Virus record (IMG/VR): IMGVR_UViG_2859827302_000004
From: a virus
Lineage: Duplodnaviria; Heunggongvirae; Uroviricota; Caudoviricetes
Strand: one strand, 5' to 3'
Length of the DNA stretch: 32,875 nucleotides
Made by a program: the position numbers and the translations under genes
The notes under the pieces: model-generated
What the model saw: the letters and a program-made list of their open reading frames with translations, nothing else
Told to the model about the DNA's origin: nothing
The model's database searches: none
Shown here: positions 1 to 18,556 of the stretch, piece after piece
How the letters are laid out: every line of letters begins with the position of its first letter
Position numbering within the stretch: position 1 is the first letter of the stretch

Positions 1-141
1 TTACTGCTTACACTGTAAGAACGCCGCAAACTCCGCTCCCCAGAAGCTCATCCGTATTTCGCACAGCGAACCGTGCAGCATCCAGATGATGAGGATTGCC
101 GTCACGCAGAACGTGATGGCCGTAAGCGATTTTTGCGACAT
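1..141 (-). CDS. Hok/Gef-family type I toxin-like small membrane protein (46 aa; absent from the supplied ORF track)
   Basis: Minus-strand ATG (139-141) to TAA (1-3) translates to MSQKSLTAITFCVTAILIIWMLHGSLCEIRMSFWGAEFAAFLQCKQ: polar N-terminus, single hydrophobic helix, then SLCEIR and AAF motifs as in Hok/Gef toxins (recalled from memory). Confidence 0.55.
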   Translation of the reverse strand: MSQKSLTAITFCVTAILIIWMLHGSLCEIRMSFWGAEFAAFLQCKQ

Positions 142-331: not shown

Positions 332-492
332 TTAATTCTGAGGTAAGGGCAAACTCATCTGATTGTTTCTTCTGTGTGAAGTTGGCAGTTCATGCCACGG
401 GTAGACTGGCCCCCTGAATCTCCAGACAACCAGTATCACTTAAATAAGTGATAGTCTTAATACTAGTTTTTAGACTAGTCATTGGAGTACAG

Positions 493-858
493 ATGATTGA
501 TGTCTTAGGGCCGGAGAAACGCAGACGGCGTACCACACAGGAAAAGATCGCAATTGTTCAGCAGAGCTTTGAACCGGGGATGACGGTCTCCCTCGTTGCC
601 CGGCAACATGGTGTAGCAGCCAGCCAGTTATTTCTCTGGCGTAAGCAATACCAGGAAGGAAGTCTTACTGCTGTGGCCGCCGGAGAACAGGTTGTTCCTG
701 CCTCTGAACTTGCTGCCGCCATGAAGCAGATTAAAGAACTCCAGCGCCTGCTCGGCAAGAAAACGATGGAAAATGAACTCCTCAAAGAAGCCGTTGAATA
801 TGGACGGGCAAAAAAGTGGATAGCGCACGCGCCCTTATTGCCCGGGGATGGGGAGTAA
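493..858 (+). CDS. insC: IS2 InsC (orfA, HTH)
   Basis: [56 protein letters not shown]... recognised as IS2 InsC; ATG at 493 lies inside track ORF 448-858. Confidence 0.9.
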
Positions 859-1721
859 GCTTAGTCAGCCGTTGTCTCCGGGTGTCGCGTGCGCAGTTGC
901 ACGTCATTCTCAGACGAACCGATGACTGGATGGATGGCCGCCGCAGTCGTCACACTGATGATACGGATGTGCTTCTCCGTATACACCATGTTATCGGAGA
1001 GCTGCCCACGTATGGTTATCGTCGGGTATGGGCGCTGCTTCGCAGACAGGCAGAACTTGATGGTATGCCTGCGATCAATGCCAAACGTGTTTACCGGATC
1101 ATGCGCCAGAATGCGCTGTTGCTTGAGCGAAAACCTGCTGTACCACCATCGAAACGGGCACATACAGGCAGAGTGGCCGTGAAAGAAAGCAATCAGCGAT
1201 GGTGCTCTGACGGGTTCGAGTTCTGCTGTGATAACGGAGAGAGACTGCGTGTCACGTTCGCGCTGGACTGCTGTGAGCGTGAGGCACTGCACTGGGCGGT
1301 GACTACCGGCGGCTTCAACAGTGAAACAGTACAGGACGTCATGCTGGGAGCGGTGGAACGCCGCTTCGGCAACGATCTTCCGTCGTCTCCAGTGGAGTGG
1401 CTGACGGATAATGGTTCATGCTACCGGGCTAATGAAACACGCCAGTTCGCCCGGATGTTGGGACTTGAACCGAAGAACACGGCGGTGCGGAGTCCGGAGA
1501 GTAACGGAATAGCAGAGAGCTTCGTGAAAACGATAAAGCGTGACTACATCAGTATCATGCCCAAACCAGACGGGTTAACGGCAGCAAAGAACCTTGCAGA
1601 GGCGTTCGAGCATTATAACGAATGGCATCCGCATAGTGCGCTGGGTTATCGCTCGCCACGGGAATATCTGCGGCAGCGGGCTTGTAATGGGTTAAGTGAT
1701 AACAGATGTCTGGAAATATAG
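816..1721 (+). CDS. insD: IS2 InsD reading frame (DDE transposase; made as InsCD by frameshift)
   Basis: 301-aa ORF overlapping insC, recognised as IS2 InsD. Confidence 0.9.
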
Positions 1722-1732
1722 GGGCAAATCCA

Positions 1733-1928
1733 ACGGGATGCCCTCTGATGAGTGAATGGGGGAGGCGTGCTTTGAAGTGAATTTGTGGAAGGCTTCCAGT
1801 GTTGAGAAACATACGCCGCATTCTAGATTGTTACACTGATAATACTTTTGTCTCACGGTGTTTGAATCATTTTCCGGACGACTGGTGCGGATACGGGCAG
1901 ATGCGCCACAAAGCGGACAACGGAACAT
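1733..1928 (-). pseudogene. ogr: Ogr/Delta-family zinc-finger late-gene activator, 3' end interrupted by IS2
   Basis: MFRCPLCGASARIRTSRPENDSNTVRQKYYQCNNLECGVCF has the C-x2-C...C-x4-C pattern of P2 Ogr; first 65 codons native, then the ORF runs into IS2; native frame resumes beyond the ACGGG repeat and stops at 332-334. Confidence 0.7.
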
Positions 1929-2031
1929 AGCGACCTCTCTTATTGTAGTGCTTGCACTATTCTAGGTTGTATTCTCGGTAATGCTGCCAACTTACTGATT
2001 TAGTGTATGATGGTGATTTTAAGGTGCTTGC

Positions 2032-2307
2032 GTGGCTTCCATTTCCATCAGATGTCCTTCCTGCTCCGCTACTGAAGGCGTGGTGCGTAACGGCAAAAGC
2101 ACTGCCGGACATCAGCGCTATCTCTGCTCTCATTGCCGTAAAACATGGCAACTACAGTTCACTTACACCGCCTCTCAGCCCGGTACGCACCAGAAAATAA
2201 TTGATATGGCCATGAATGGCGTCGGATGTCGCGCCAGTGCACGCATTATGGGCGTTGGCCTCAACACGGTTTTACGTCACTTAAAAAACTCAGGCCGCAG
2301 TCGGTAA
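2032..2307 (+). CDS. insA: IS1 InsA
   Basis: GTG-initiated 91-aa ORF with the InsA zinc-finger/HTH sequence. Confidence 0.9.
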
Positions 2308-2729
2308 CCTCGCGCATACAACCGGGCAGTGATGTGATTGTCTGCGCTGAAATGGACGAACAGTGGGGCTACGTCGGTGCTAAATCACGTCAGCGCTGGC
2401 TGTTTTACGCGTATGACAGGATACGGAGGACGGTTGTGGCGCACGTCTTCGGTGAACGCACTCTGGCCACACTGGAGCGTCTTCTGAGCCTGCTGTCGGC
2501 CTTTGAGGTCGTGGTATGGATGACGGATGGCTGGCCGCTGTATGAATCACGCCTGAAGGGAAAGCTGCACGTTATCAGCAAGCGTTACACTCAGCGCATT
2601 GAGCGACATAATCTGAATCTGAGACAACATCTGGCAAGGCTGGGACGGAAGTCACTGTCGTTCTCAAAATCGGTGGAGCTGCATGACAAGGTCATCGGGC
2701 ATTATCTGAACATAAAACACTATCAGTAA
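2226..2729 (+). CDS. insB: IS1 InsB reading frame (expressed as InsAB' by -1 frameshift)
   Basis: 167-aa frame overlapping insA 3' end. Confidence 0.85.
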
Positions 2730-2802
2730 GTTGGAGTCATTACCAGTATTCTCTAAGATTTAAACATGACTTTCTCTATATAATGATTTTTAGCATTAGT
2801 TA

Positions 2803-2832
2803 ATAAACGAACGGCACTCTAAGGAGCGCCGT
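2803..2832 (-). terminator. Putative intrinsic terminator downstream of the 367-aa ORF
   Basis: Arms ACGGCACTC (2811-2819) and GAGCGCCGT (2824-2832) give a 9-bp stem with one G-U pair in the minus-strand RNA, followed on that strand by UCGUUUAUUA. Confidence 0.35.
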
Positions 2833-2840
2833 CAAAGATA

Positions 2841-3944
2841 TTATTCTGATGTCACTCTTTGCGAGTGAGCTATTTTTAAATCAGCGTTTCCTTCAAATAC
2901 TATATTCAACTCATAGTTAAGAGTTAGCTTGAATTTATCTGAGTCACTTTTGATATTCTCTGAAGTGACATTTACTAACTTATTATTATCATATTCTCTA
3001 ATAATTAATTTAGTGAAGTAGTTATCCTTTACCACAAGAGAAAATGGTTGATTAACAAATGGTAAGAAGTAAACCTTACGGGTACCGGATTCAGTAGTTA
3101 TGTTCATAGAGCCATCATCATTTTTTCTCATTAGTTCTCTGAGGTTGGGATTATCGAAAAGCATACGATTATATTGCTGAAAGATCTCTTTACTCATCAC
3201 AAGAACCAGTTTGCCAGCCAAGTCAGCAGATGATTTTATGTGATCAATCAACATATTGAAATCTTCTATTACGGTATGTTGCGAACAGCCAGTGCTAAAT
3301 AAATTTGAAAGTATTATTCTCTGGATGTCCTTGAGAATTAAGTCTGCTTGAATATCACCTTCATTGATATAAGGGATGGATTCTATTCCTTCGGCATACG
3401 GTTCTTTATCTATCTTAATAGATATCTTATGTTTTGTGAAACAATCGCTAGCCTGCTTAAAATCAATAGATTTGAAAAGTGAAAGAGGGAGCGTTTTCTT
3501 GATGCGTTTACGAAGATGTTCTGATGTTTTACGTGCAGTGCTATCTAGTCGATGTACATCTATGGCAGCATCCTGAAGTCTCATATCAAGATCTTTCTTT
3601 AGCATGTTAATATGCTCTTGAAGCAACTTTCTTAAGTTTTCTTTTTTTGTTTGGAGATCGTCCAATGTTAAAGTCAGCTTGATTTTAGTGTATTCGATGG
3701 AGTTACAAATTTTTGATAATACTCCAATGAATCGTTGCTTCTCACGATATGTTATATAGTTGTTTTCTATTGCTTCTTTTATTTCTTTTGATACGCTATC
3801 GTTCTTGTTAGAAAAAATTAATAATAGCTGAATCCATGATTGTTCCATATCAATAAATCCACAGTCAAAAACATTACTGTAAACTCTGCCCATCACCATG
3901 TCTGTTTTATCATAGTCACGTAAACGCCTTGCTAAACTATTCAT
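2841..3944 (-). CDS. Hypothetical protein, 367 aa, low-GC, apparently intact; distal gene of the cargo cassette
   Basis: Uninterrupted ORF; ATG directly abuts the upstream stop (TAGATG); GGAG about 13 nt upstream; no Walker A or other motif recognisable by eye. Confidence 0.75.
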   Translation of the reverse strand: MNSLARRLRDYDKTDMVMGRVYSNVFDCGFIDMEQSWIQLLLIFSNKNDSVSKEIKEAIENNYITYREKQRFIGVLSKICNSIEYTKIKLTLTLDDLQTKKENLRKLLQEHINMLKKDLDMRLQDAAIDVHRLDSTARKTSEHLRKRIKKTLPLSLFKSIDFKQASDCFTKHKISIKIDKEPYAEGIESIPYINEGDIQADLILKDIQRIILSNLFSTGCSQHTVIEDFNMLIDHIKSSADLAGKLVLVMSKEIFQQYNRMLFDNPNLRELMRKNDDGSMNITTESGTRKVYFLPFVNQPFSLVVKDNYFTKLIIREYDNNKLVNVTSENIKSDSDKFKLTLNYELNIVFEGNADLKIAHSQRVTSE

Positions 3945-4946
3945 CTACCCATTGTGCTCCATATTTTCAGACCATGTCCACAGGCAGATTCTAATTAATA
4001 TCTTGATTAGTTGGCTTGCATTATCAATTTCTTCAGTGGGAGTTTCATATCCACCGGTTTGGTCAATAAGTTTACCCTCTAAAATAAGTTTAATGTAATG
4101 TGTCATTAGTTTGTCAGAAGTATTGATTCTTGATGTCAGATAAAGACATGTGCATATACGCATGTCAGTCAACGCATTTATGATGGCAATATTGAACCAC
4201 TCTCTGTCTGAATTGAAGTTTAGTTTTTTGGATATGAAAAAAACCGGGTTAAAAAGCTGGCCTTTGTAACTGTATTTTTCTACCGAATGGCTGTCAATAT
4301 TCATTGAGTGCTGCCATCGGTTAATAAGATCGACGGCTGTATCAATAGTAGAAGGATCGCGAGTCTGTGTTGCATCAATAATCATCGATGGAAGTTCTTG
4401 TAGTTGCGTTTTGCAAAATAATTCAAATAAATCTGAATTCTCTGTATTGCAGAAACGAAAGTTTATGCTTTCTTGATATTGCTCCCAAACAGTGGTATAG
4501 GTTCTTAATATACGATTATAACGTGAACGAAGCGAGGCATTTAAGAGTGATTGGTTGTTTCGGAACCATTCTGTTAATATTGACCATTGTGAACGAGTAA
4601 TTCCCATATAGATACAAAGTTCATTGCTGATAAGATGTTTTCTATTATTGATAATACGCACTCCGCTCCAAAGACATAATTCAAAAAATCTTTCAGAAAG
4701 ATTAATTTTATCCATGGAATTATTTGATATTTTATAAACTTCATCTGAAAACTCATATTGAAAACTCCGTTCAAATAATTCTGTAGTGATCAGTAAGAAG
4801 TTATTGTTGGTATTATCATCTTGAAAAAAATACAAATCGCAGAGATTATTAAAGTTATTAATTAATGCAGAGATAGCATTGTCAAAACTAATGAGATCAG
4901 AATCCCGCAGATACATATACGTATCTGCTGTTATAGCCTGCATTGT
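3945..4946 (-). CDS. Hypothetical protein ORF (332 native codons); probably the C-terminal third of an IS-split ~670-aa gene
   Basis: Track ORF 3945-4979 begins inside IS600 (first 11 codons MVVSAIASTPH are IS-encoded); native frame is continuous with the ORF on the other side of IS600. Confidence 0.65.
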   Translation of the reverse strand, partial: TMQAITADTYMYLRDSDLISFDNAISALINNFNNLCDLYFFQDDNTNNNFLLITTELFERSFQYEFSDEVYKISNNSMDKINLSERFFELCLWSGVRIINNRKHLISNELCIYMGITRSQWSILTEWFRNNQSLLNASLRSRYNRILRTYTTVWEQYQESINFRFCNTENSDLFELFCKTQLQELPSMIIDATQTRDPSTIDTAVDLINRWQHSMNIDSHSVEKYSYKGQLFNPVFFISKKLNFNSDREWFNIAIINALTDMRICTCLYLTSRINTSDKLMTHYIKLILEGKLIDQTGGYETPTEEIDNASQLIKILIRICLWTWSENMEHNG

Positions 4947-4990
4947 GTGAGGTGTACTGGCAATAGCGGACACTACCATTTGTTCTTTTT

Positions 4991-5809
4991 TTAAGCAGCC
5001 ATCTGATGATATTTTTCCCTGAAGGCTGCCGGGGAGATATTCCCCAGACGAGAGTGACGACGCTGACGATTGTAGAAAATCTCAATGTATTCCCGTATTA
5101 CTGAGATGGCTTCATCCCGGTTATTAAAACGATAGTGGCTCAGGCTCTCATTTTTCAGCGTTCCCCAGAAGCTTTCCATCGGAGCGTTGTCGTAACAGTT
5201 ACCTTTACGCGACATTGATGTTTTCAGACCAGACTGCTCCTGTATGACCCGGTAATCGTATGCGCAGTACTGTGAACCTCGATCAGAGTGGTGGATTAGC
5301 CCGGCAGGTGGGCGCTGGCTCCTGAGCGCCATAAACAGGGCTTTACCTGTCAGCTCTTTTGTCATGCGCTCTCCCATGGCGTAGCCGACAATTTCGCACG
5401 TATAAACATCTTTGATGCCAGCGAGGTACAACCATCCCTCCTGAGTGGCAACATACGTCAGGTCCGCCACCCAGACCTGATTTGGTGCTGTAGGAGCGAA
5501 CGTCTGGTTCAGCAGATTTGGCGCAACTGGCAGATTGTGGTTCGGGTTCGTAGTCGCTCTGAACTTGCGTTTCTGCTTACAGCGTAGCCTTAGCTCCTTA
5601 CGAAGACGTGCCAGTCGGTCACGACCAACGATGATGCCATTCTCTGCCAGCTCCGTCTGGAGCCGCCGGGTTCCATATGTTTCGCGAGTGCGGATATGTG
5701 CCACCTTAATCTCCAGTTTTAGCCGCTCATCACTTTGTTTTCTGTCTGAGGGTTCATGCTGTACCCAGTTGTAATAACCGCTCCTGGATACACCAAATAC
5801 CTGACACAT
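4991..5809 (-). CDS. IS600 orfB (DDE transposase domain)
   Basis: 272-aa ORF in IS3-family orfA/orfB arrangement. Confidence 0.9.
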   Translation of the reverse strand: MCQVFGVSRSGYYNWVQHEPSDRKQSDERLKLEIKVAHIRTRETYGTRRLQTELAENGIIVGRDRLARLRKELRLRCKQKRKFRATTNPNHNLPVAPNLLNQTFAPTAPNQVWVADLTYVATQEGWLYLAGIKDVYTCEIVGYAMGERMTKELTGKALFMALRSQRPPAGLIHHSDRGSQYCAYDYRVIQEQSGLKTSMSRKGNCYDNAPMESFWGTLKNESLSHYRFNNRDEAISVIREYIEIFYNRQRRHSRLGNISPAAFREKYHQMAA

Positions 5810-5844
5810 CGCTTCAATGGGAAATTGTTGTCGCCATTGTTCGA

Positions 5845-6147
5845 TTAACGCGTATTTTTCAGCGACTCCTGTGCAAAATACGCTGTTGCTTTTTTTAATA
5901 TATCTCGCTCAAGGCGAGCTTCATTTAACGCCTTACGCAGTTGCAGAATTTCAGATTCCAGTTCAGCCACCGTGCGGGAACCAGGAGTACCGAGCCCTTT
6001 TCTGGCGGCGGTAACCCATTGTCCTAAAGTGCCTTCAGGAAGGGATAATCGGGAAGCGCCTTCACTGATCGAAAGTTGATTTTCAAGAACCGTTCTGACA
6101 GCTTCGGCTTTGAACTCTTTAGAGTAACGTTGGTTTTTTCTGCTCAT
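5845..6147 (-). CDS. IS600 orfA (HTH/leucine-zipper)
   Basis: 100-aa ORF MSRKNQRYSKEFKAEAVRTVLENQLSISEGASRLS... Confidence 0.9.
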   Translation of the reverse strand: MSRKNQRYSKEFKAEAVRTVLENQLSISEGASRLSLPEGTLGQWVTAARKGLGTPGSRTVAELESEILQLRKALNEARLERDILKKATAYFAQESLKNTR

Positions 6148-6211
6148 TATTAGCTCCTTCTGATGCCATTCTATTTCAGGAAGGAGTGTCCGTTAAACTC
6201 AGGCTACCTCA

Positions 6212-6950
6212 GTAAGACTTACGGAAAAATCTCCTCCTTTAATCGGAGCCCTATAAAAACATTGCTTAAGTATTTTTATTAATAAGCTGTCTGGTTTGAT
6301 ATTTTTAACGCTAAAAAGTATCTTACCCGTGGATTCTGTTTCTTTTGTACGATTATCACCAATGACAAATGACGCAAAATGATTCTTCTTTTTTAGTTGG
6401 TAATTAATAAGATTAAGAGTAAGTTGAAAAGGACGGTGATATAAACTTAACTCATCTTCCTTAGAATAACTGCTAGCCACAGATATGTATTCTCCTTTGT
6501 AATCGGCTTGCTTGATTTCTAAATTTGAATAGTTATGTTTTTGATAGATAGGGTATAACCTAAGCTTGGCTGAGATTTTGTTACAAATATGGGGCATTAC
6601 TATTTCGAAGGCAATGTATCGCTTTATAATTATTTGCCGTTTTACATCATCAAGAATTTCAAGACTCACGATAAAGAACCAAATAGAAAGAACTATGTTT
6701 ATCAAAAGCCATAATATGCTGATTAGACAAGCTATACCATAAAGATAACTTCCAAAGACAGTTTTAATTAGTACACTGAGAAGTATAAATCCTGATAAGA
6801 AAAGCCCGCTGAGTCCAGCAAGCATGAATCCTGAGTAACGCTGATAAGCAGTTTGGGCTATTTTTCTATCTGCCTTTTTTGGGAATAAGACACTTACTAA
6901 ACCTATAACAAGGGGGTATACAATACCAATAATTGTCAATTGGCCACTTA
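6212..6950 (-). pseudogene. Middle segment of the IS-split membrane-protein gene (TM helices 2-4 plus soluble region)
   Basis: Native part of track ORF 6199-7125; hydrophobic segments LTIIGIVYPLVIGLVSVLF, GFMLAGLSGLFLSGFILLSVLI, LYGIACLISILWLLINIVLSIWFFIVSL; bounded by IS1 (6951) and IS600 (6211). Confidence 0.7.
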
Positions 6951-7005
6951 GGTAATGCTGCCAACTTACTGATTTAGTGTATGATGGTGATTTTAAGGTG
7001 CTTGC

Positions 7006-7281
7006 GTGGCTTCCATTTCCATCAGATGTCCTTCCTGCTCCGCTACTGAAGGCGTGGTGCGTAACGGCAAAAGCACTGCCGGACATCAGCGCTATCTCTG
7101 CTCTCATTGCCGTAAAACATGGCAACTACAGTTCACTTACACCGCCTCTCAGCCCGGTACGCACCAGAAAATCATTGATATGGCCATGAATGGCGTCGGA
7201 TGTCGCGCCAGTGCACGCATTATGGGCGTTGGCCTCAACACGGTTTTCCGTCACTTAAAAAACTCAGGCCGCAGTCGGTAA
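7006..7281 (+). CDS. insA: IS1 InsA
   Basis: Same protein as the copy at 2032-2307 apart from one residue. Confidence 0.9.
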
Positions 7282-7703
7282 CCTCGCGCATACAACCGGG
7301 CAGTGATGTGATTGTCTGCGCTGAAATGGACGAACAGTGGGGCTACGTCGGTGCTAAATCACGTCAGCGCTGGCTGTTTTACGCGTATGACAGGATACGG
7401 AGGACGGTTGTGGCGCACGTCTTCGGTGAACGCACTCTGGCCACACTGGAGCGTCTTCTGAGCCTGCTGTCGGCCTTTGAGGTCGTGGTATGGATGACGG
7501 ATGGCTGGCCGCTGTATGAATCACGCCTGAAGGGAAAGCTGCACGTTATCAGCAAGCGTTACACTCAGCGCATTGAGCGACATAATCTGAATCTGAGACA
7601 ACATCTGGCAAGGCTGGGACGGAAGTCACTGTCGTTCTCAAAATCGGTGGAGCTGCATGACAAGGTCATCGGGCATTATCTGAACATAAAACACTATCAG
7701 TAA
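7200..7703 (+). CDS. insB: IS1 InsB reading frame
   Basis: Same protein as the copy at 2226-2729 apart from one residue. Confidence 0.85.
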
Positions 7704-7718
7704 GTTGGTGTCATTACC

Positions 7719-8004
7719 GGCCACTTAAAATGGTTGTTTGCCATTCGGTTAATGAATGCCTAAACGGGAAATAATGTAAAAGATTATTTTTTATAAATAA
7801 TTCGTTTAAATATCCAACATAAAGTAGTACAAATGAAAAAGCTGATATGCAAAGTACTGATTTAACCGGTGAGGATGTTAATCTTATGATGTTTTTTTCA
7901 ATAAAATTCCATTTTAAATTCGAATAAAATGGATTTTTAACCATTTTATTACGAACATAGTTCTTTGCTAAAATCTCTGTTGCACTTAAAAATTGTCCAA
8001 TCAT
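7719..8004 (-). pseudogene. N-terminal segment (95 codons, TM helix 1) of the IS-split membrane-protein gene
   Basis: ATG at 8002-8004; MIGQFLSATEILAKNYVRNK...VKSVLCISAFSFVLLYVGYL...; frame continues across the IS1 duplication into 6950-6212. Confidence 0.7.
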
Positions 8005-8334
8005 GAATTACTCTTCTATAAAGTGTGGGTCTACTAACTAAACTGGAACTTTTACTATTGAGTCATATTCCCTTGGACGGGATGGACTGTGAAGATTATA
8101 CTTGACTTCCTCTGTCATGTGGGAAAAACATCCGTATTATTGTTAGCATCTGGTTGATGCCCCAACCTCTGACATCTAGTGGGCTGATACATTATCTTTT
8201 GTTCTTACTGTCAGTGTAGAAGCACATCTCAAAAATAATATTTTTAAGAGATTTATTCTGTTTCTGCTATCCATTCCGGGATTTTTGCTTCAAGTTCAAG
8301 CTGCGTGGTAAAGCCGCTGGGTAATGACTCCAAC

Positions 8335-8712
8335 TTATTGATAGTGTTTTATGTTCAGATAATGCCCGATGACTTTGTCATGCAGCTCCACCGATTTTGA
8401 GAACGACAGCGACTTCCGTCCCAGCCGTGCCAGGTGCTGCCTCAGATTCAGGTTATGCCGCTCAATTCGCTGCGTATATCGCTTGCTGATTACGTGCAGC
8501 TTTCCCTTCAGGCGGGATTCATACAGTGGCCAGCCATCCGTCATCCATATCACCACGTCAAAGGGTGACAGCAAGCTCATAAGACGCCCCAGCGTCGCCA
8601 TAGTGCGTTCACCGAATACGTGCGCAACAACCGTCTTCCGGAGCCTGTCATACGCGTAAAACAGCCAGCGCTGGCGCGATTTAGCCCCGACGTATCCCCA
8701 CTGTTCGTCCAT
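8335..8712 (-). CDS. insB: IS1 InsB reading frame
   Basis: 125-aa track ORF with InsB sequence. Confidence 0.85.
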
Positions 8713-8756
8713 TTCCGCGCAGACGATGACGTCACTGCCCGGCTGTATGCGCGAGG

Positions 8757-9032
8757 TTACCGACTGCGGCCTGAGTTTTTTAAGTGACGTAAAATCGTGT
8801 TGAGGCTAACGCCCATAATGCGTGCAGTTGCCCGGCATCCAACGCCATTCATGGCCATATCAATAATTTTCTGGTGCGTACCGGGTTGAGAAGCGGTGTA
8901 AGTGAACTGCAGTTGCCATGTTTTACGGCAGTGAGAGCAGAGATAGCGCTGATGTCCGGCAGTGCTTTTGCCGTTACGCACCACCCCGTCAGTAGCTGAA
9001 CAGGAGGGACAGCTGATAGAAACAGAAGCCAC
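8757..9032 (-). CDS. insA: IS1 InsA
   Basis: [43 protein letters not shown]... Confidence 0.9.
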
Positions 9033-10296
9033 TGGAGCACCTCAAAAACACCATCATACACTAAATCAGTAAGTTGGCAGCATCACCAAGCCGCTGTTAT
9101 CAATGGTGTGCTCGGCTTTTGCAATAATCCAGTCCTGATAATCAATCTCGCTTTTAAAGCCTGTCACTGTGCCATGCATTTCGGGATAGAGTTCTGCACG
9201 ACCACGCGCCAGCGTGATGGAGAATGATGCGGCTCCGCGTTGTAGCTGCTGCCACTTTGCCGCCGCTGCGCGTCTTGCTGCCTGCTCGTTCTGATAAGTC
9301 TTGCGTAACACAAACACGTTGCCTTCCACACCTTCCATATAGTCGCCTTCCCGACTGCTGCTTTTCTCCTTTTTGGGTTTTGGCGGTTTGCGGCGTTTCA
9401 CGCTGACTTTTTTCTTTTTCCCGTAATTAAGATCAAGCCAGTAGGCGCGTACCCCCGTATACGCCTCGCGGTCAGCAATGCGGAACTGATGGCGATCGCC
9501 GCTGCTGCGTGTAATGGCGAACGAGGGCAACGGCTGCCCCTGTGCGTTCACGCCACCACCTGGCATGATGAATAACAGATTGCCGCTTTTTACCGTGGCG
9601 ATTGCTCCCAGCATTTCCGCCATGCGCGTAAGAAAGGACATGTCGCTTTCTTCGGTCTGGTCGGCGTGGTCGATTTCGATATCCATCAGCATTTCGCTGA
9701 TTTGCGGTTTCAGACCGTACCGATGAGCGATGGCGGATACCACACGCTCAACGGTCACATCATGCCAGGACACCTCACGTTTAACGTTAAATTCATCCCG
9801 AAAATCTGCGCTTCTGGCTGAAACAGTCAGCCTGTCCGGCGGTCCTTCGTGAGCGATTTCATCAACAATGTAAGTGCCTTTTTCTGTCAGCGGTTCCCCT
9901 TTCCAGCCAATGAGAACCGTCAGACGCGCGCCCCGTGGCGGTAGCTGCAACTGACCATCCGCATCATCCAGCGTGATGGTGAGCTGGTCCGCCTCAAATC
10001 CCCGGTTGTCGGTCAGTTACAGGCTCATCAGGCGCTCCGCCACGCCTGACAGCGTTTTACCCTCCGAGAGAATATCAAAATCCGGCATTTTCACGGGGGC
10101 CGTGCCCTGACTGAGCAATTGCATGGTGGTGTCGGTCATCTGCTCCCTCCCTGTGCGGCATGGTCGCATGTGCGTGCGGAGGGGGGGACTGCTTTTTGTT
10201 GTCGCCGTGGCGGGAGAACGGCGCAGGGGTGAGATTACGCGCGTGGTGGGTGATGATTGTTGCTGAATCATTTAACGGATACAAGGGGCTGAAGCT

Positions 10297-11481
10297 ATGA
10301 GTGAAACTCGTTTTCATGGTGCCCGTGTTACGGAGAATACCGACCTGGTAACAGCGATTAACGATGTTGATTCCAGCGTTATCGGTATCGTGGCAACGGC
10401 GGATGATGCGGACGCGAAGCTGTTCCCGCTGAACAAGCCCACACTGCTGACCCGCGTCAATGACGTGCTGGGAAAATGCGGGACAACGGGGACGCTTTAT
10501 CGTGCGCTTAAGGCCATCGCAGACCAGGTGAGCACAAAGGTGATCGTCGTTCGCGTGGCTGAACACAAAGAAGAAGACGGAAAAACGCAGGATCAACTGG
10601 TTATAGGTGGTTCTGAGGATGACGGCAGCTATATGGGGATGTATGCGCTGCTTGTTGCAGAGCAGGATGAAAGCATCGGATACCGTCCGCGTATTCTGGC
10701 CGCGCCGGAGCTGGACACGGAGGCGGTAACAAAATCCCTGTGCGTGATTGCAGATAAACTGCGCGCGTTTGTGTATGCCTCATGTCATGGCTGTAACACG
10801 ATGGCCGAGGCAATTACCTACCGCCAGAAATTCAACGAACGTGAGGTGATGCTCTTATGGCCGGACTTCATCGCCTACAACCCGAAAAATGGCAAAAACG
10901 AAACGTTCCCCGCGCCTGCCTATGCGTGCGGCCTTCGTGCGTACATTGACCATGAACAGGGATGGAACAAATCGCTGTCCAACGTTCCGGTTAAAAATGT
11001 GCTGGGGATGTCGAGGCATGTGTTCTGGTCGTTGCAGGCCGAAGACAGCGATGCCAACAGCCTCAACAACAAAGAAATCACGACCATTATTCGTCGCAAC
11101 GGGGTCCGCTTCTGGGGTAACCGCACACCGGAAACGAACGCCTACATCTTTGAGGTGTATACCCGAACCGCACAGGTGCTGGCTGATTCAATTGCGGAAG
11201 CGCAGTTTGAAACCATCGACAGTCCACTGACGCCTGCGAATGTGAAGGATGTTATCAGTGCCATCAGGGCAAAACTGGATTCACTGGTGACTGCCGGGAA
11301 ACTGATTGGCGCGGAGTGCTGGTATGACGTGGTGGATAACAGCACCACGGATTTACGTCAGGGACGTGTGCGTATTCGCTACAAATATACGCCCGTTCCG
11401 CCACTGGAAGACATGGAGCTTTACCAGACGTTTACTGATGAATACTTTGAACCCGCATTTGCGGTGCTGGGAGGTGCCTGA
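10297..11481 (+). CDS. FI: Contractile tail sheath protein, P2 FI family
   Basis: 394-aa ORF with [50 protein letters not shown] and YTPVPPLE motifs shared with P2 FI as recalled. Confidence 0.85.
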
Positions 11482-11786
11482 TGGCTGTGCCAAAACATCT
11501 TCGCTTTTTTACGCTGTTTGTGGATGGTGAAAACGAAGTGGGTAATGTGACGTCCGTCACTCTGCCTAAGCTGACGCGCAACACCGACAGCTACCGGGGT
11601 GGTGAAGTGGCTAAACTGGAAGAAGAACTGGGTTATCACGATGGTTTTCTCGACACCGCTGAACACTTTTACCTGTTTGTGATTCAGGGGCCGAAATCCT
11701 TAGCGACTGAGCTGCGCCTTAGTTACAACATCCTATATGCCTTTATCATTAACAGGTGCCACATGCAGCGCCTGTTAATGTTGTAA
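11481..11786 (+). pseudogene. FII: Tail tube protein (P2 FII-like), 3'-truncated
   Basis: ATG overlaps the sheath stop (ATGA); N-terminus contains VTLPKLTR as in P2 tube; ORF runs only ~100 codons before the prophage remnant gives way to the yneE upstream region. Confidence 0.45.
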
Positions 11787-11872
11787 GCTTGTAGGTAATT
11801 TGTAAGTAGCGTCTTGAGAATGTGATCGTAATCACGTTTAATAGGGCGACTTTTCCACGCCTGAAGATAACC

Positions 11873-12787
11873 ATGATTGTTCGTCCACAACAACACTGGC
11901 TGCGCCGTATTTTTGTCTGGCACGGCTCAGTATTATCCAAGATATCCTCGCGCTTACTACTCAATTTTCTCTTTTCTATCGCTGTTATTTTCATGCTGCC
12001 CTGGTACACGCATCTGGGCATCAAATTCACCCTCGCACCGTTCAGCATTCTCGGTGTCGCCATCGCCATTTTTCTTGGTTTTCGTAATAATGCCGGGTAC
12101 GCCCGTTACGTTGAAGCGCGAAAACTTTGGGGACAGTTGATGATTGCCTCACGGTCGTTACTACGTGAGGTAAAAACGACATTGCCGGATTCGGCAAGTG
12201 TAAGGGAGTTTGCCAGGCTGCAAATCGCCTTCGCCCACTGTTTACGCATGACATTACGCAAACAGCCACAGGCGGAAGTGCTGGCTCATTATCTCAAGAC
12301 TGAAGATCTTCAGCCTGTACTGGCTTCGAACTCTCCAGCTAACCGTATCTTGTTAATAATGGGGGAGTGGTTGGCGGTTCAGCGCCGCAATGGGCAGCTT
12401 TCAGAAATCCTGTTTATTAGCCTCAACGATCGGCTTAATGATATTTCAGCGGTCCTGGCAGGATGCGAGCGCATTGCCTATACGCCAATTCCCTTTGCCT
12501 ACACCCTGATTTTGCATCGTACTGTTTATCTGTTTTGTATCATGCTGCCGTTCGCGCTGGTCGTGGACCTGCATTACATGACGCCTTTTATCTCTGTGCT
12601 GATTTCCTACACTTTTATTTCGCTGGATTGTCTGGCGGAAGAACTGGAAGATCCGTTCGGTACTGAAAACAATGATTTACCGCTGGATGCCATCTGCAAC
12701 GCTATTGAAATTGACCTCTTACAGATGAACGATGAAGCCGAAATTCCAGCAAAAATTCTTCCCGATCGTCATTACCAGCTGACGTGA
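11873..12787 (+). CDS. yneE: Bestrophin-family membrane protein YneE
   Basis: MIVRPQQHWLRRIFVWHGSVLSKISSRLLLNFLFSIAVIF... recognised as E. coli YneE; ATG at 11873 inside track ORF 11822-12787. Confidence 0.85.
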   Translation: MIVRPQQHWLRRIFVWHGSVLSKISSRLLLNFLFSIAVIFMLPWYTHLGIKFTLAPFSILGVAIAIFLGFRNNAGYARYVEARKLWGQLMIASRSLLREVKTTLPDSASVREFARLQIAFAHCLRMTLRKQPQAEVLAHYLKTEDLQPVLASNSPANRILLIMGEWLAVQRRNGQLSEILFISLNDRLNDISAVLAGCERIAYTPIPFAYTLILHRTVYLFCIMLPFALVVDLHYMTPFISVLISYTFISLDCLAEELEDPFGTENNDLPLDAICNAIEIDLLQMNDEAEIPAKILPDRHYQLT

Positions 12788-15011: not shown

Positions 15012-15470
15012 ATGGCAAAGAAAGACGAGAATCTGAAACGTCTGAAAGAGCTGTCAGAATTGCTGGGGCGTGAGCCTGATATGTCGGGAAGCGCGGCAGA
15101 TATCGCACAGCGTGTGGCAGAGCTGGAAGAGGAGCTTGGTGGTGTGGATGGCACTGACAACCAGGCAAGTGTGCTTACCGGGCAGGAAAATAACGGGGAG
15201 GCAGTTCCGCCGGAGAGGATGATTCAGAATACGGATGAGGACGACTGGCAGGCTGTTCTGCATATTGCCGTTTTCGTCCGTGCACAGGCGCCGGATTCTG
15301 AGCTGGATACGTGGATGGAGAACACCATATTTCCGGCCATGAAGGATATTCCGGTGCTTTCCGGACTCATCGACACCATGATCCCACTCGGTTTTAACTA
15401 TCAACGTGATAATGAGATGGCCACCTGGGCGATGGCGGAAATCACGTACCAGATCACGTACACGAATTAA
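15012..15470 (+). CDS. Hypothetical acidic protein, 152 aa, probable phage/island remnant
   Basis: ATG at 15012 (track ORF starts earlier at 14979, which abuts the IS4 terminus); MAKKDENLKRLKELSELLGREPDMSGSAADIAQRVAELEEELG...; no family recognised. Confidence 0.5.
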   Translation: MAKKDENLKRLKELSELLGREPDMSGSAADIAQRVAELEEELGGVDGTDNQASVLTGQENNGEAVPPERMIQNTDEDDWQAVLHIAVFVRAQAPDSELDTWMENTIFPAMKDIPVLSGLIDTMIPLGFNYQRDNEMATWAMAEITYQITYTN

Positions 15471-15583
15471 GGAGGTGGCAATAACCACACCAAATCGTGT
15501 CGTTACGGGGAAGTCATCTTCACAGGGATCTTCGGTCAGTTAGTATTACCGACATCCATTCACCAACTTACCGGAGATAATCG

Positions 15584-15775
15584 ATGTCAAAACCCCGATG
15601 GACCATTGAACAGAAAAGGCAGCACGTTGCTGCCTGGCGCGCCAGTGGTCTTACACGTCAGCAATACTGTGAACTCAACGATATTCCCTTCACATCACTT
15701 CGCGAATGGCCGCAGGATGTCGCAAAAGCTGAACGCCGGGCAAATGAACCGACCGTTCTTCCCGTTCATATGTAA
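15584..15775 (+). pseudogene. 5' part of a transposase-associated HTH gene (IS66-family tnpA-like or IS3-type orfA-like), split by an IS66-family insertion
   Basis: MSKPRWTIEQKRQHVAAWRASGLTRQQYCELNDIPFTSLREW fits the HTH orfA pattern; stop at 15773-15775 lies in the inserted element terminus; frame resumes at 18220 and ends at 18341-18343. Confidence 0.4.
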
Positions 15776-15808
15776 GCGTGCAGCAAGAACCGTATTGACG
15801 GGGATGTG

Positions 15809-17346
15809 TTATTCAGTCGGCAGTGCTACGCGCCAGGGGAGCAGTTCGCCGACCCGGTTTATCGGCCAGTCGGCTATGACGTCAAGGACATAGCGGAGGT
15901 AGCTTTCTGGCTCCACTCCGTTCAGTTTGCACGTCCCGATCAGGCTGTACAGCAGCGCTCCCCGCTCTCCTCCATGATCCGAACCGAAGAACAGGTAGTT
16001 TTTGCGGCCCAGACTGACCATCCGCAACGCATTTTCAGCGATGTTATTGTCCGCCTCAGCCCAGCCATCATCTGCATAGTACGTCAGCGCCGGCCACTGG
16101 TTCAGGGCGTATGCGAACGCTTTCGCCAGTTCTGAGTGTCGCGACAGGGTTTTCATCTTTTCACGCAGCCAGCTTTCCAGGGATTTCAGCAGCGGTTTCG
16201 TTTTCAACTGACGTTCGGCAAGGCGCTGCTCCGCCGTCATTCCCCTTATCTCTGCCTCGATGGCGTACAGTTCGCCGATCCGTTTCAGCGCTTCCTCCGT
16301 CAGGGCTGACGGGGTGCGAACGTGCACATCGTGGATTTTACGGCGGGCGTGAGCCCAACAGGCGGCTTCCGTTATCCGGCCATCCCGGTACAGCTCGTTG
16401 AACCCGGCGTATGCATCCGCCTGCAGTACACCACTGAACCCCGCAAGATGGGTCTGCGGATGGATGCCTTTTCTGTCCGGGCTGTAAGCGAACCACACCG
16501 CCGGCGCCAGCGTTGACCCGGCGTTACGGTCGTCACGAACGTAGGTCCATAACCGCCCGGTCTTCGTTTTCTTATTGCCTGGCAACAGCACCGGGACAGG
16601 CGTGTCATCGCATGGAGCTTACCGTCAGTCAGCACATAGTCCTGAAGCGCTTCTTCCAGCGGTGACAGTAGCCGGCAGCATGCATCCACCCAGCCCGACA
16701 GCAGTGAACGACTCAGCTCCACGCCCTGGCGGCCGTACATTTCAGACTGGCGGTACAGCGGGGTGTGCTCTGCATACTTTGAGATCAGCACGCGGGCCAG
16801 CAGCCCCGGTCCTGCGATACCCCGCTCGATGGGCCGTGAAGGCGCGGGGGCCTGCACGATGGCATCGCACTGAGTACAGGCATGCTTTTCACGTACAGTC
16901 CGGATAACCCGGAAGACGCTGCGCATCAACTCCAGCTGTTCGGCGGCATCCTCACCCGGATAGCTCAGTGAGCCTCCACATTCCGGGCAGCATGACGCTG
17001 CCGGCAGCAGCCGTTTTTCATCGCGGGGGAGTGATTCGGGGAACGGTTTGCGGGTGCGGGTTTGACGCAGCGGGCGCTGCACGGCCGGGTCGTCAACCCG
17101 ACCGGTAAGGGTATCACTTTCTTTCTGAAGTGCCTTCAGGTCAGCTTCCATCTGTGCGATACGACGGGAGACTTTTTCGGAGCGGCTGCCGAAGTTCATC
17201 CGGCGCAGCTTATCCAGCTGTGCCTGCAGATGGTCTATTTCGCGTTCACGCTCGTTCAGCTTTTCCAGCAGGGCACGGTTCAGCGCCTCCTGTTCGGCAA
17301 GGAGACGTTTCAGTGCATTGATATCGTCAGGAAGTGAGCTGCTCAT
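15809..17346 (-). pseudogene. IS66-family tnpC with a frameshift
   Basis: Track ORFs 16372-17346 and 15809-16591 are the two halves; a single missing base near 16609 changes [13 protein letters not shown] into HAMTRLS. Confidence 0.8.
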
Positions 17347-17394
17347 ACCGGGTATATTACCAGGCTCATTCAGCGTCGACCAGGATAAAGAGGC

Positions 17395-17742
17395 TTACAA
17401 CATAGTCAGGGACGTAAGCAGTCTTTTAGGCTGCCGCCAGTCGATACCTTCAAGGAGCATCGCCAGCTGTGCCGGTGTGAGGAACACTTTGCCATCCCGG
17501 GCTGACGGCCAGGCGAAGCGGCCGCGCTCCAGCCGTTTGGTCAGCAGACACAGTCCATCGCCGGTAGACCAGAGGAGCTTTACCTGACTGCCATTACGCC
17601 CACGGAAGATAAAAACGTGACCTGACATCGGATCGTCTTTCAGCGTCGTCTGCACCTTTGCCGCCAGGCCGTTGAAGCCATTTCTCATATCGGTGATACC
17701 GGCAACCAGCCAAATTTTGGTCCCGGAAGGTAACGGGATCAT
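17395..17742 (-). CDS. IS66-family TnpB
   Basis: 115 aa, IWLVAGITDMRNGFNGLA... motif. Confidence 0.85.
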   Translation of the reverse strand: MIPLPSGTKIWLVAGITDMRNGFNGLAAKVQTTLKDDPMSGHVFIFRGRNGSQVKLLWSTGDGLCLLTKRLERGRFAWPSARDGKVFLTPAQLAMLLEGIDWRQPKRLLTSLTML

Positions 17743-18140
17743 CGCTTCAGTTCCTGTATCAGCAGAGTCAGGAGCTTTTCGCTGACATTGCCATTGAAGC
17801 GGAGCGTCCCGTGCCGGAACGTTACCTCACAGCTGATACTGAGGGTTTCCGGATCCTCTGCGAGCGATTCTGGCTGTTCGGCAGCTGCATCGAGAGTCAC
17901 AGGAAGTAGCTGGGGGCTCTCTGAAGAAGGTAATAGCAGCTTTCCCTCGCGCCATTGTTGTCGCCATTTGAACAACAGATTGGCGTTAATGCCATTTTCA
18001 AGAGCAAGTTTTGAGATGGATATCCCGGGTTCACAGGAGGCAGCAACGAGCTGCTGTTTAAATTCGGGAGGATAATTAGGGCAGCCTTTTCGCCTGCCGG
18101 GATTCACATTTTTCTGCATATCTGACACTTTGGTTCCCAC
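17739..18140 (-). CDS. IS66-family TnpA
   Basis: HTH protein with LLFKWRQQW motif; likely ATG at 18119. Confidence 0.8.
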   Translation of the reverse strand: MGTKVSDMQKNVNPGRRKGCPNYPPEFKQQLVAASCEPGISISKLALENGINANLLFKWRQQWREGKLLLPSSESPQLLPVTLDAAAEQPESLAEDPETLSISCEVTFRHGTLRFNGNVSEKLLTLLIQELKR

Positions 18141-18480: not shown

Positions 18481-18556
18481 GAAGTACTGAGTAGCGTGAT
18501 CGCGTCAGGCCGCGAAGTACTGACTCGGGGATTAATTGCAGGTGATGATGTACTGA
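18481..18556. repeat. Three direct repeats of GA(A/T)GTACTGA with exact 33-bp spacing
   Basis: Copies start at 18481, 18514 and 18547. Confidence 0.6.

What the first reader, a model, noticed from the sequence alone, without database searches (positions are those of the whole stretch)
2746..8252. Low-GC cargo cassette between P2-type gpD and ogr: candidate undescribed membrane-protein plus partner module
P2 has gpD followed almost directly by ogr. Here about 4.3 kb of native DNA (IS copies excluded) lies between the gpD stop (8253) and the ogr start (1928), all on the gpD/ogr strand. It is conspicuously AT-rich: three 60-nt stretches counted by hand gave about 25%, 33% and 38% G+C, against GC-rich flanks. 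It encodes a protein with four N-terminal hydrophobic helices and a large soluble region, followed by a tightly coupled 367-aa ORF. I see no Walker A, HEPN-like, TIR-like or nuclease signature by eye and cannot match either protein to a family I know. Prophage location, atypical composition, a membrane-anchored protein with a coupled cytosolic partner, and inactivation by IS elements are the usual signature of phage-carried accessory modules (superinfection exclusion, abortive infection or other anti-phage systems).
Basis: partly seen in the sequence, partly recalled or inferred. Interest (0 to 1): 0.85.

Follow-up and report, generated by a model that had tools for sequence, protein, structure and literature searches.

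The report
Broken membrane protein with capsid-like domain
The AT-rich DNA between the P2-type tail gene D and ogr is not a two-gene module but the wreck of one 1039-residue gene, from an undescribed family carried by phages, plasmids and defence islands, which joins a four-helix membrane anchor to a cytoplasmic domain predicted to fold like a phage capsid protein.

Summary
The low-GC cargo is real: 3.5 kb of native DNA at 33% G+C, against about 54% in gpD. It fills a variable slot between gpD and ogr in a decayed P2-like prophage. The "membrane protein plus coupled 367-aa partner" is one gene. In 5 of 5426 complete E. coli genomes it is an uninterrupted 1039-codon CDS. Here it carries an IS1, a 1264-bp IS3-family element and a TGG-to-TAG change at codon 672, which creates the apparent second ORF, plus substitutions at two positions conserved across the family.

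The family has 511 clusters at 50% identity across Gammaproteobacteria. Members are almost all full length with no conserved neighbour, and none matches Pfam, NCBIfam, PADLOC or PDB sequences.

Members sit beside or inside known defence genes: between hsdS and hsdR of a type I R-M operon, and next to SIR2-HerA, PifA-like, HEC-04, HEC-08, PDC-S15, TIR and DUF3800 genes.

Best reading: a stand-alone, membrane-anchored anti-phage protein whose capsid-like domain engages phage head assembly. It is dead in this window. The function is inferred, not tested.

The parts
7728..8004 (-). Gene segment 1: codons 1 to about 92 (ATG at 8002-8004). Encodes the cytoplasmic N-terminus, TM1 and the first loop.
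   Evidence: The IS-free reconstruction is collinear with the intact 1039-codon CDS of L001 and L002.
6951..7718 (+). IS1 copy (768 bp) inserted at codon 93, just before TM2. The 9-bp target duplication GGCCACTTA lies at 6942-6950 and 7719-7727.
   Evidence: InsA and IS1 transposase Pfam hits.
6215..6950 (-). Gene segment 2: codons about 93-338. Encodes TM2-TM4, the most conserved part of the family, and a small alpha/beta domain.
4948..6211 (-). IS3-family element (1264 bp, IS600-like by size and ends) inserted at codon 338.
   Evidence: HTH_Tnp_1 and rve Pfam hits.
3945..4947 (-). Gene segment 3: codons 339-671 (helical middle region), ending in the premature TAG at 3945-3947. Intact alleles have TGG (Trp672) there.
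2841..3944 (-). It contains a conserved linker motif M-[VI]-S-G-R-[VI]-Y-S-G followed by the HK97-fold capsid-like domain. The stop codon is at 2841-2843.
8191..8220 (-). Sigma-70 promoter-like site (TCTACA-18-GATAAT) in the 248-bp AT-rich spacer between the gpD stop and the gene's ATG.
   Evidence: Consensus scan on the intact locus L001 at 15402-15431, mapped to the window through. A consensus match only.
2810..2833 (-). Terminator-like hairpin (10 pairs, 6 G-C) followed by a T-rich tail, directly after the gene's stop codon.
   Evidence: (L001 12065-12088), mapped to the window through.
1977..2744 (+). IS1 copy in the spacer between the cargo gene and ogr (8-bp duplication GTATTCTC).
8254..10139 (-). 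P2-type gpD (baseplate hub / late control D), split by IS1 at 8320-9087 (9-bp duplication AAGCCGCTG). This is the left boundary of the cargo slot.
   Evidence: Phage_GPD Pfam hit.
332..1928 (-). ogr/Delta zinc-finger gene (332-401 plus 1733-1928), split by an IS2-like element at 402-1732. This is the right boundary of the cargo slot.
   Evidence: Ogr_Delta Pfam hit.

Best explanation
The cargo is a pseudogene of a single-gene, horizontally mobile, inner-membrane protein of 1039 aa.

Anatomy:
- A basic cytoplasmic N-terminus.
- Four TM helices, which are the best conserved part and rich in invariant polar residues.
- A small alpha/beta domain.
- A helical region of about 350 aa.
- A flexible linker with an invariant SGRxYSG motif.
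- A C-terminal domain with the HK97 major-capsid-protein fold. The whole region of about 850 aa after TM4 is cytoplasmic.

Proposed function (inferred): a stand-alone anti-phage, or more broadly anti-MGE, protein expressed from its own promoter in the lysogen. The more variable capsid-like and helical part would be the sensor. It would engage an invading phage's head-assembly components (capsid protein, scaffold, prohead protease or portal) by mimicking a capsid subunit. The conserved four-helix membrane module would be the effector, oligomerising to compromise the membrane (abortive infection). A non-suicidal variant is that it tethers or poisons capsid assembly at the membrane.

In this window the gene is dead. 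It carries two IS insertions, a W672* nonsense mutation, and Q116P and C961R at conserved positions.

Shown: the single-gene architecture, topology, fold, distribution, neighbourhoods and inactivation. Inferred: the defence role, the sensor/effector assignment and the mechanism.
For: One gene:
- Intact alleles are a 1039-codon CDS in 5 E. coli genomes.
- Intact 1039-aa copies are also on record from Shigella sonnei and S. boydii.
- The window differs from an intact allele by 7 nt, including TGG to TAG.
- 183 relatives and 511 clusters at 50% identity are almost all full length (1030-1150 aa).
- A hydropathy check of 15 members found the N-terminal hydrophobic segments in every one except a single 914-aa protein.

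Stand-alone gene: no neighbour recurs across plasmid, P4-like island, ICE, chromosomal island and prophage contexts.

Defence company:
- In L032 the gene sits between hsdS and hsdR of a type I R-M operon, its start overlapping the end of hsdS and its stop 9 bp before hsdR.
- It lies adjacent to SIR2-HerA, HipA and nSTAND genes in Vibrio cholerae.
- Neighbours match PADLOC models: PifA (5e-65), HEC-04 (8e-42), HEC-08 (1e-134), PDC-S15 (4.5e-99), PDC-M04A/DUF3800 and TIR.
- A plasmid locus carries HsdR, an S-4TM effector and VapBC.
- The D-ogr slot carries alternative cargos, including DUF3800.
- A preprint (10.1101/2024.10.15.618418) reports a third P2 hotspot between a tail protein and CI.

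Fold and topology:
- AF2 full-length model: pLDDT 81, pTM 0.66.
- AF2 C-terminal model: pLDDT 83.4, pTM 0.75.
- The same HK97 hits appear with the full-length model.
- Foldseek against BFVD independently returns major capsid proteins, down to E = 8e-8.
- K+R counts of 8, 5 and 7 on the N-terminus, loop 2 and the post-TM4 segment, against 2 and 0 on loops 1 and 3, put the C-terminal region in the cytoplasm.

Conservation: the TM block is about 0.8 conserved, against 0.41-0.50 over residues 721-1000. This is the usual pattern of a conserved effector and a variable sensor.

Moron-like unit: 33% G+C, a promoter-like site and a terminator-like hairpin.
Against: - No experiment exists. Defence is guilt by association only, with no background statistics computed.
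- No enzymatic or known pore-forming signature was found.
- tblastn found no copy in 50,697 deposited phage genomes. IMG/VR holds only the same P2-type allele plus one distant copy.
- One V. cholerae lineage carries the gene alone among housekeeping genes.
- The HK97 similarity is fold-level on a predicted model: 6-11% identity, TM-scores 0.3-0.5, no sequence signal.
- Capsid folds can serve simply as oligomerisation platforms.
- Conserved polar residues in the TM helices could equally mean docking to a host membrane complex rather than pore formation.
Confidence: 0.5

Rival explanations
1. Two-gene module, the first reader's model: a membrane protein plus a translationally coupled cytosolic partner acting together.
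For: In the window the 367-aa ORF starts with ATG immediately after the TAG of the upstream ORF.
Against: All intact alleles read TGG at that codon and encode one 1039-aa protein. Relatives down to about 15% identity span both parts in one polypeptide. The short hits are consistent with fragments of broken or partial genes.
Confidence: 0.02
2. A non-suicidal assembly poison. The membrane-tethered capsid-like domain co-assembles with incoming phage capsid protein or scaffold and sequesters it at the membrane. This blocks head assembly without killing the cell, working like the satellite-encoded capsid remodellers.
For: HK97 fold of the cytoplasmic domain. A SaPI capsid-morphogenesis protein, Ccm, which is itself HK97-fold, is among the hits (rank 14). 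Carriage by a P2-like prophage and a P4-like island.
Against: It does not explain why the TM block is the most conserved part, with many invariant polar residues. Stoichiometric poisoning by a single-copy lysogen gene is demanding. A resident P2 would need to be immune.
Confidence: 0.15
3. A non-defence accessory function for mobile elements, such as a transporter or channel (as the RefSeq name 'MFS transporter' implies), an entry-exclusion factor, or a stress or membrane-homeostasis protein.
For: Four conserved TM helices with polar residues. Frequent on conjugative plasmids, 377 PLSDB records. One V. cholerae locus has no defence neighbours. RefSeq and UniRef names.
Against: No MFS or any transporter profile matches the query or 44 diverse members. 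MFS proteins have 12 TM helices; this has 4 plus about 850 cytoplasmic residues. The gene is embedded in a type I R-M operon and defence islands. It is not located in tra or exclusion operons.
Confidence: 0.2
4. A domesticated nanocompartment or shell: the HK97-like domain assembles into an encapsulin-like or capsomer-like lattice tethered to the inner membrane, with a physiological rather than an immune role.
Against: No encapsulin or capsid Pfam match. No cargo-enzyme neighbour. A 670-aa N-terminal extension with TM helices is incompatible with a closed shell. The patchy distribution on mobile elements fits conflict systems better.
Confidence: 0.05

Closest known systems
HK97-fold major capsid proteins and encapsulins (for example HK97 gp5, T4 gp24, lambda gpE, Pyrococcus furiosus PfV, Streptomyces griseus family 2B encapsulin)
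   Different: No sequence similarity (6-11% identity; no Pfam capsid or encapsulin hit). The domain is fused behind four TM helices and about 480 further cytoplasmic residues. The gene has no portal, protease, terminase or cargo-enzyme neighbours and is carried as a lone gene on plasmids, ICEs and islands.
PrrC-type genes embedded in type I R-M operons (prrC in the EcoprrI locus; from my knowledge of that literature)
   Same: One family member sits between hsdS and hsdR with near-overlapping boundaries. This is the classic position of a back-up abortive-infection gene.
   Different: No anticodon-nuclease or ATPase domain and no sequence relation. Most members are not R-M embedded.
Capsid-triggered abortive systems: F-plasmid PifA (T7 gp10 trigger, membrane leakage; from my knowledge) and CapRel SJ46 (PMC9712102)
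   Same: The proposed logic: sense a phage head protein, then stop the infection. Like pif, homologues lie in the variable region near RepFIA on F-type plasmids.
   Different: No homology: PifA and other PADLOC models do not match. Those sensors are not capsid-fold proteins. The trigger here is hypothetical.
Membrane-anchored defence proteins: Kiwa (KwaA 4-TM plus KwaB) and SNIPE (1 TM, DUF4041, GIY-YIG; 10.1101/2025.11.03.685801)
   Same: An inner-membrane anchor with a large cytoplasmic part, and carriage in prophages and defence islands.
   Different: KwaA, KwaB, DUF4041 and GIY-YIG profiles do not match. Kiwa has two genes. SNIPE has a nuclease. Neither has a capsid-like domain.
Satellite capsid-redirecting proteins (SaPIbov5 Ccm, P4 Sid)
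   Different: Those proteins are soluble, small and part of satellite packaging modules. This one is membrane-anchored, about 1040 aa, and also found on plasmids and ICEs.

Membership tests
   Intact alleles and several hundred relatives are single polypeptides. The junction is a TGG-to-TAG mutation.
MFS transporter (RefSeq product name of WP_264716223.1) | Match to MFS profiles (for example Pfam MFS_1) and about 12 TM helices in two bundles of six | tested here: not met
   No Pfam or NCBIfam hit for the query or for 44 diverse members. There are only 4 hydrophobic helices, all before residue 192.
HK97-fold capsid protein / encapsulin | HK97 fold of the protomer | tested here: met
HK97-fold capsid protein / encapsulin | Sequence membership of a capsid or encapsulin family (Pfam Phage_capsid, Linocin_M18 and others) | tested here: not met
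   No Pfam, PHROG or PDB-sequence match.
HK97-fold capsid protein / encapsulin | Genomic association with portal, protease, scaffold and terminase (phage) or with a cargo enzyme (encapsulin) | tested here: not met
   None in any of the contexts read.
HK97-fold capsid protein / encapsulin | Self-assembly into capsomers or closed shells | not testable with these tools
   No multimer prediction or experiment was available.
Known or candidate anti-phage systems in PADLOC-DB 2.0.0 (including Kiwa, PifA, Gao_Tmn, PD-T4/T7/lambda, HEC, PDC) | HMM match to a component of a listed system | tested here: not met
   No hit for the query at E<=1. One spurious hit (PD-T7-3, E 0.005) in 1 of 44 members.
Anti-phage defence genes in general (operational definition) | Enrichment next to known defence genes, on mobile elements and in hotspots | tested here: met
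   Embedded in a type I R-M operon. Neighbours match PifA, HEC-04, HEC-08, PDC-S15, PDC-M04A, TIR and SIR2-HerA. The P2 D-ogr slot is variable. This is qualitative: no background frequency was computed.
Anti-phage defence genes in general (operational definition) | Protection against phage when expressed | not testable with these tools
   Needs cloning of an intact allele and plaque assays.
P2-type prophage accessory gene (moron) | Atypical composition, own promoter and terminator, variable presence at a fixed slot between conserved phage genes | tested here: met
   33% against 54% G+C. A promoter-like site and a terminator-like hairpin, consensus matches only. gpD at >=95% identity occurs in 1388 of 5426 genomes, against the cargo in 5. 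Alternative cargos occupy the slot.

The most novel reading that the evidence does not exclude
A third domestication of the HK97 capsid fold, after encapsulins and gene transfer agents. In this reading a capsid-protein mimic is wired to a membrane effector and works as an immune tripwire. It is recruited into, or processed by, an invading phage's head-assembly machinery. The invariant SGRxYSG linker could be an N-arm contact or a prohead-protease site. That event would switch on the conserved four-helix membrane module to abort infection. This would be a new sensing principle in bacterial immunity: recognition of a virus by a decoy copy of its own building block.
Probability: 0.25. Interest if true: 0.92.

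Novelty: categorically new. Interest (0 to 1): 0.74.

Why it matters
- If the family is a defence system, it adds a widespread single-gene system that current annotation tools miss. It is present on hundreds of clinical Enterobacteriaceae plasmids, in Vibrio cholerae islands and in P2-type prophages.
- It would be the first defence system, to my knowledge and in the literature searched, to use a capsid-fold domain. That makes testable the idea that bacteria sense phages with mimics of phage structural proteins.
- Whatever its function, it is a new context for the HK97 fold, as a domain of a polytopic membrane protein. This bears on how viral capsid proteins are exapted by cells and mobile elements.
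- It also corrects misleading database names ("MFS transporter", "nicotinate-nucleotide adenylyltransferase").
- For this particular window the feature is a dead gene in an IS-riddled Shigella-type prophage remnant. Its value is as a pointer to the intact family.

Tried and rejected
- **Profile searches.** PADLOC, Pfam, NCBIfam and PHROGs on the reconstructed proteins gave nothing, apart from one weak PHROG of unknown function at E 0.01. Pfam and PADLOC on 44 diverse members gave only isolated chance-level hits: SLAC1, SdpI, PD-T7-3. Pfam on 10 atypical-length members gave nothing.
- **PDB sequence search** with the family profile at E<=10 found nothing.
- **Foldseek against afdb50** was not available on the machine.
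- **tblastn against deposited phage genomes** found no match.
- **Rfam** on the whole window found nothing.
- **Literature.** Searches for P2 hotspots, a capsid-like or HK97 domain in defence proteins, and the RefSeq accessions found no description of this family. The novel P4/P2 systems of 10.64898/2026.02.27.708500 (Crouga, Bandua, Aernus, Toga, Reve, Hailong) and SNIPE have different domain content.
- **Domain swapping.** I looked for the TM or capsid-like module in other architectures and found none. All full-length members keep the same layout.
- **Enzymatic sites.** I considered a nuclease, HEPN or NTPase site among the conserved residues of the helical region (W492, E493, D544, W549, N595, D599, R657). 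No fold or motif supports one.
- **The search for related loci** with the most diverse alignment failed for lack of conserved peptide stretches. The closer alignment worked.

Full report
**1. The observation**

The window's first 12 kb is a heavily IS-invaded remnant of a P2-like prophage. Repeat finding and direct reading give the following IS elements:
- Three IS1 copies: 1977-2744, 6951-7718 and 8320-9087. Each has a target duplication and InsA / IS1-transposase ORFs.
- A 1264-bp IS3-family element at 4948-6211.
- An IS2-like element at 402-1732.

Outside these elements, the DNA between the gpD stop (8254-8256) and the ogr ATG (1928) is 30-36% G+C in 300-nt windows. The IS copies and phage genes are 52-57%. 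With the IS copies removed, the native stretch is 3505 bp at 33.2% G+C. gpD is 53.7%, and GC3 is 0.30 in the cargo gene against 0.58 in gpD. The compositional anomaly is real, but the native cargo is 3.5 kb, not 4.3 kb.

**2. One gene, not two**

Removing the two internal IS copies and their duplications gives a 671-codon ORF, a TAG, and the 367-codon ORF in the same frame. The IS-free DNA matches only 5 of 5426 complete E. coli genomes, at 98.9-99.8% identity. In two of these that I read, the region is one 1039-codon CDS with TGG (Trp672) where the window has TAG.

The window allele differs from an intact one at 7 of 3120 nt. One change is synonymous and five are missense, including Q116P and C961R. 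Q116 is invariant and C961 nearly invariant in the 34-sequence family alignment. The seventh change is the nonsense mutation. The gene here is therefore a pseudogene hit at least three times.

Intact 1039-aa copies are also on record from Shigella sonnei and S. boydii. Many fragments come from S. boydii, S. dysenteriae and S. flexneri.

**3. The locus**

In the intact loci the order is hok/gef, ogr, cargo and gpD on one strand. The FI-FII-E-E'-T-U tail block follows on the other strand, then a second cargo position and the tail-fibre genes. The window keeps hok/gef (1-141), split ogr, the cargo, split gpD, FI and part of FII. It loses the prophage at 11602.

gpD at 95% identity or more is present in 1388 genomes, against the cargo gene in 5. 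In related prophages the same slot holds other single genes:
- a DUF3800 gene in O104:H4;
- a 340-aa hypothetical gene in ST131;
- a YecA-family gene in another strain.

A preprint (10.1101/2024.10.15.618418) reports a third P2 hotspot between a tail protein and CI, and invertase-linked inversions near the tail genes. Another (10.64898/2026.02.27.708500) lists minor P2 defence hotspots near the integrase and att site and within the late genes.

The gene is flanked by a promoter-like site in the 248-bp upstream spacer and by a terminator-like hairpin just after its stop. This is moron-like organisation, though both are consensus matches only.

**4. The family**

A word-seeded search found 183 relatives. 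An exhaustive HMMER profile search of 1.84 billion representatives found 511 clusters at E<=1e-3, of which 153 reach E<=1e-30. Nearly all are 1030-1150 aa and align end to end.

Named members come from the following taxa:
- Enterobacterales: E. coli, Salmonella, Klebsiella, Serratia, Pantoea, Erwinia, Pectobacterium.
- Vibrio, Shewanella, Photobacterium, Pseudoalteromonas and Acinetobacter.
- A Desulforhopalus.

All are annotated hypothetical, or carry evidently spurious names.

377 PLSDB plasmids encode a homologue, 216 of them conjugative. No deposited phage genome does. IMG/VR holds eight copies of the P2-type allele and one distant member.

Neither the query nor 44 diverse members match Pfam, PADLOC or NCBIfam. 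The family profile finds no PDB sequence at E<=10.

**5. Neighbourhoods**

No neighbour is conserved, so the gene works alone. The company is consistently defence-like.

| Context | Defence-type neighbours |
|---|---|
| ColM-type plasmids | HEC-04-like ATPase, RES toxin |
| IncF plasmid | HsdR, S-4TM effector, VapBC, DUF3800, next to ccdAB-repE |
| P4-like island | HNH, PDC-S15 (FRG), PDC-M04A (DUF3800) |
| ICE | RES-domain protein, Mrr-like protein, HEC-08 |
| Pectobacterium island | PifA-like KAP NTPase (5e-65) |
| Serratia island | DUF3800, HNH, TIR |
| V. cholerae island | SIR2-HerA, HipA, nSTAND |
| IMG/VR contig L032 | gene between hsdS and hsdR of a type I R-M operon |

The L032 case is the most telling. 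The gene's start overlaps the end of hsdS and its stop lies 9 bp before hsdR.

One V. cholerae lineage has the gene alone among housekeeping genes. I did not compute a background expectation, so this evidence is qualitative.

**6. Structure**

The full-length AlphaFold2 model, built from a 34-sequence alignment, has mean pLDDT 81 and pTM 0.66. Its parts are as follows:
- TM1 at about 50-66, TM2 at 90-115, TM3 at 132-157 and TM4 at 164-192.
- A long helix to residue 224.
- A small alpha/beta domain at 236-330.
- A helical region at 334-683.
- One long disordered linker at 685-700.
- More helices at 706-820.
- An alpha/beta and beta-rich region at 831-1032.

K+R counts are 8, 5 and 7 on the N-terminus, loop 2 and the post-TM4 segment, against 2 and 0 on loops 1 and 3. 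This places both termini, and so the whole 850-aa soluble part, in the cytoplasm.

The TM block is the most conserved part: 0.76-0.81 column conservation, against 0.41-0.50 over residues 721-1000. Its invariant polar residues include Q89, Q96, T98, Y104, S112, Q116, K118, N177, S181, D194 and R197. Across the 44-member alignment, P105, N177, R692 and F829 remain invariant.

The linker carries a nearly universal M-[VI]-S-G-R-[VI]-Y-S-G motif.

**7. The capsid fold**

- encapsulins (9bhu, 2e0z, 7bcv, 7k5w);
- HK97 gp5, lambda gpE, T4 gp24, T5 pb8 and phi29;
- herpesvirus floor domains;
- the SaPIbov5 Ccm protein;
- a P2-family capsid protein (7oz4).

HK97-fold chains must be a small minority of the 48,164 chains searched (my estimate, not counted). 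A clean sweep of the top 60 is therefore not a chance result.

Foldseek against BFVD independently gave 66 hits at E<=1e-3, headed by major capsid proteins down to E = 8e-8 with probability 1.0. TM-scores were modest at 0.3-0.5, and identity is 6-13%.

This is a fold-level statement about a predicted model. There is no sequence-level relation to any capsid family.

**8. Interpretation**

Shown by the evidence:
- It is a mobile, stand-alone gene.
- It encodes a polytopic inner-membrane protein whose cytoplasmic end has a capsid-protein fold.
- It is found where defence genes are found.
- It is inactivated here.

Inferred:
- It is an anti-phage, or anti-MGE, protein.
- The variable capsid-like and helical region senses, and the conserved TM module executes.

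The most economical mechanism is mimicry. Phage head proteins assemble in the cytoplasm, and major capsid proteins are frequent triggers of bacterial immunity (CapRel, PMC9712102; PifA, from my knowledge). A capsid-fold domain is well suited to be bound by, co-assemble with, or be processed by head-assembly machinery.

The invariant motif in the flexible linker could be the equivalent of an N-arm contact or a cleavage site. That is speculation.

Rivals, with evidence for and against each, are given in the Rival explanations section:
- a non-lethal assembly poison;
- a non-defence membrane function;
- a tethered shell.

**9. Comparison and novelty**

The gene fails membership tests for MFS transporters, for every PADLOC system, and for capsid and encapsulin families at the sequence and context level. 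It meets only the fold criterion of the HK97 lineage and the operational neighbourhood criterion of defence genes.

I found no paper describing a defence protein, or any membrane protein, with an HK97-fold domain. The tested novel P2/P4 systems and SNIPE are different proteins.

I therefore rate the family as categorically new in architecture, with an untested function.

**10. Verdict**

- Observation: partly confirmed.
- Confidence that the family is a defence or conflict gene: about 0.6.
- Confidence in the best explanation as a whole: 0.5.
- Confidence in the specific capsid-mimic tripwire mechanism: about 0.25.
- Interest: 0.74.

Noticed in passing
window 3876-3905 (minus strand); residues 687-696 of the intact protein: A nearly universal linear motif, M-[VI]-S-G-R-[VI]-Y-S-G, lies in the only long low-confidence linker of the model, just upstream of the capsid-like domain. 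R692 is invariant, and Y694 nearly so, across 44 members at about 15-25% identity. It may be an N-arm-like contact or a processing or interaction site.
   Followed up: partly
L032 3890-13529 (IMG/VR contig IMGVR_UViG_2910955273_000001): A 1071-aa family member is embedded in a type I R-M operon, in the order hsdM, hsdS, family gene, hsdR. Its start overlaps the end of hsdS. hsdR appears split into two ORFs. Integrase genes flank the island.
   Followed up: partly
L001 16731-22306, L002 and L010; window 10297-11602: The tail block FI-FII-E-E'-T-U is inverted relative to gpD and the tail-fibre genes in this P2-like lineage. One locus (L010) has a resolvase/invertase gene next to gpU. A second cargo position there holds a 'transferase' in L001 and a serine O-acetyltransferase in O104:H4.
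   Followed up: no
L017 4735-5904; L018 4854-5876; L019 4460-5599: The same gpD-ogr slot holds unrelated single genes in other E. coli prophages: a DUF3800 protein, a 340-aa hypothetical protein and a YecA-family protein. DUF3800 genes also recur next to family members elsewhere (L011, L008, L015) and match the PADLOC candidate PDC-M04A.
   Followed up: partly
database records WP_264716223.1 and cluster P0052: The product names 'MFS transporter' (RefSeq/PGAP) and 'Nicotinate-nucleotide adenylyltransferase' (UniRef) attached to this family have no support from any profile or from the predicted structure.
   Followed up: yes
window 1-141 (minus strand): A hok/gef-family toxin gene lies at the prophage end next to ogr. 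Rfam found no Sok-like or other RNA family anywhere in the window at gathering thresholds.
   Followed up: partly
window 11602-12787 and about 15200-32875: The P2-like prophage ends abruptly inside FII at 11602, a deletion joint. A YneE/bestrophin-like ORF (identified from memory) follows at 11822-12787. From about 15.2 kb the window matches lambdoid prophage tail genes (gpJ, tape measure, tail tube) of E. coli genomes.
   Followed up: no
L011 (plasmid NZ_LC483178.1) 8001-11120: On IncF plasmids the homologue sits in the variable region beside ccdAB-resD-repE-sopAB (RepFIA). As I recall, the F plasmid carries its pif phage-exclusion genes in that region. This suggests a plasmid defence hotspot.
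   Followed up: no
L001 15464-16317 versus L002 15464-16573: gpD is annotated as a full 369-aa gene in one genome. In many others it is a shorter 'VgrG/Pvc8 family' CDS plus a partial hypothetical protein, although the DNA is about 97% identical. This is probably an annotation or start-site inconsistency, or a frameshift.
   Followed up: no
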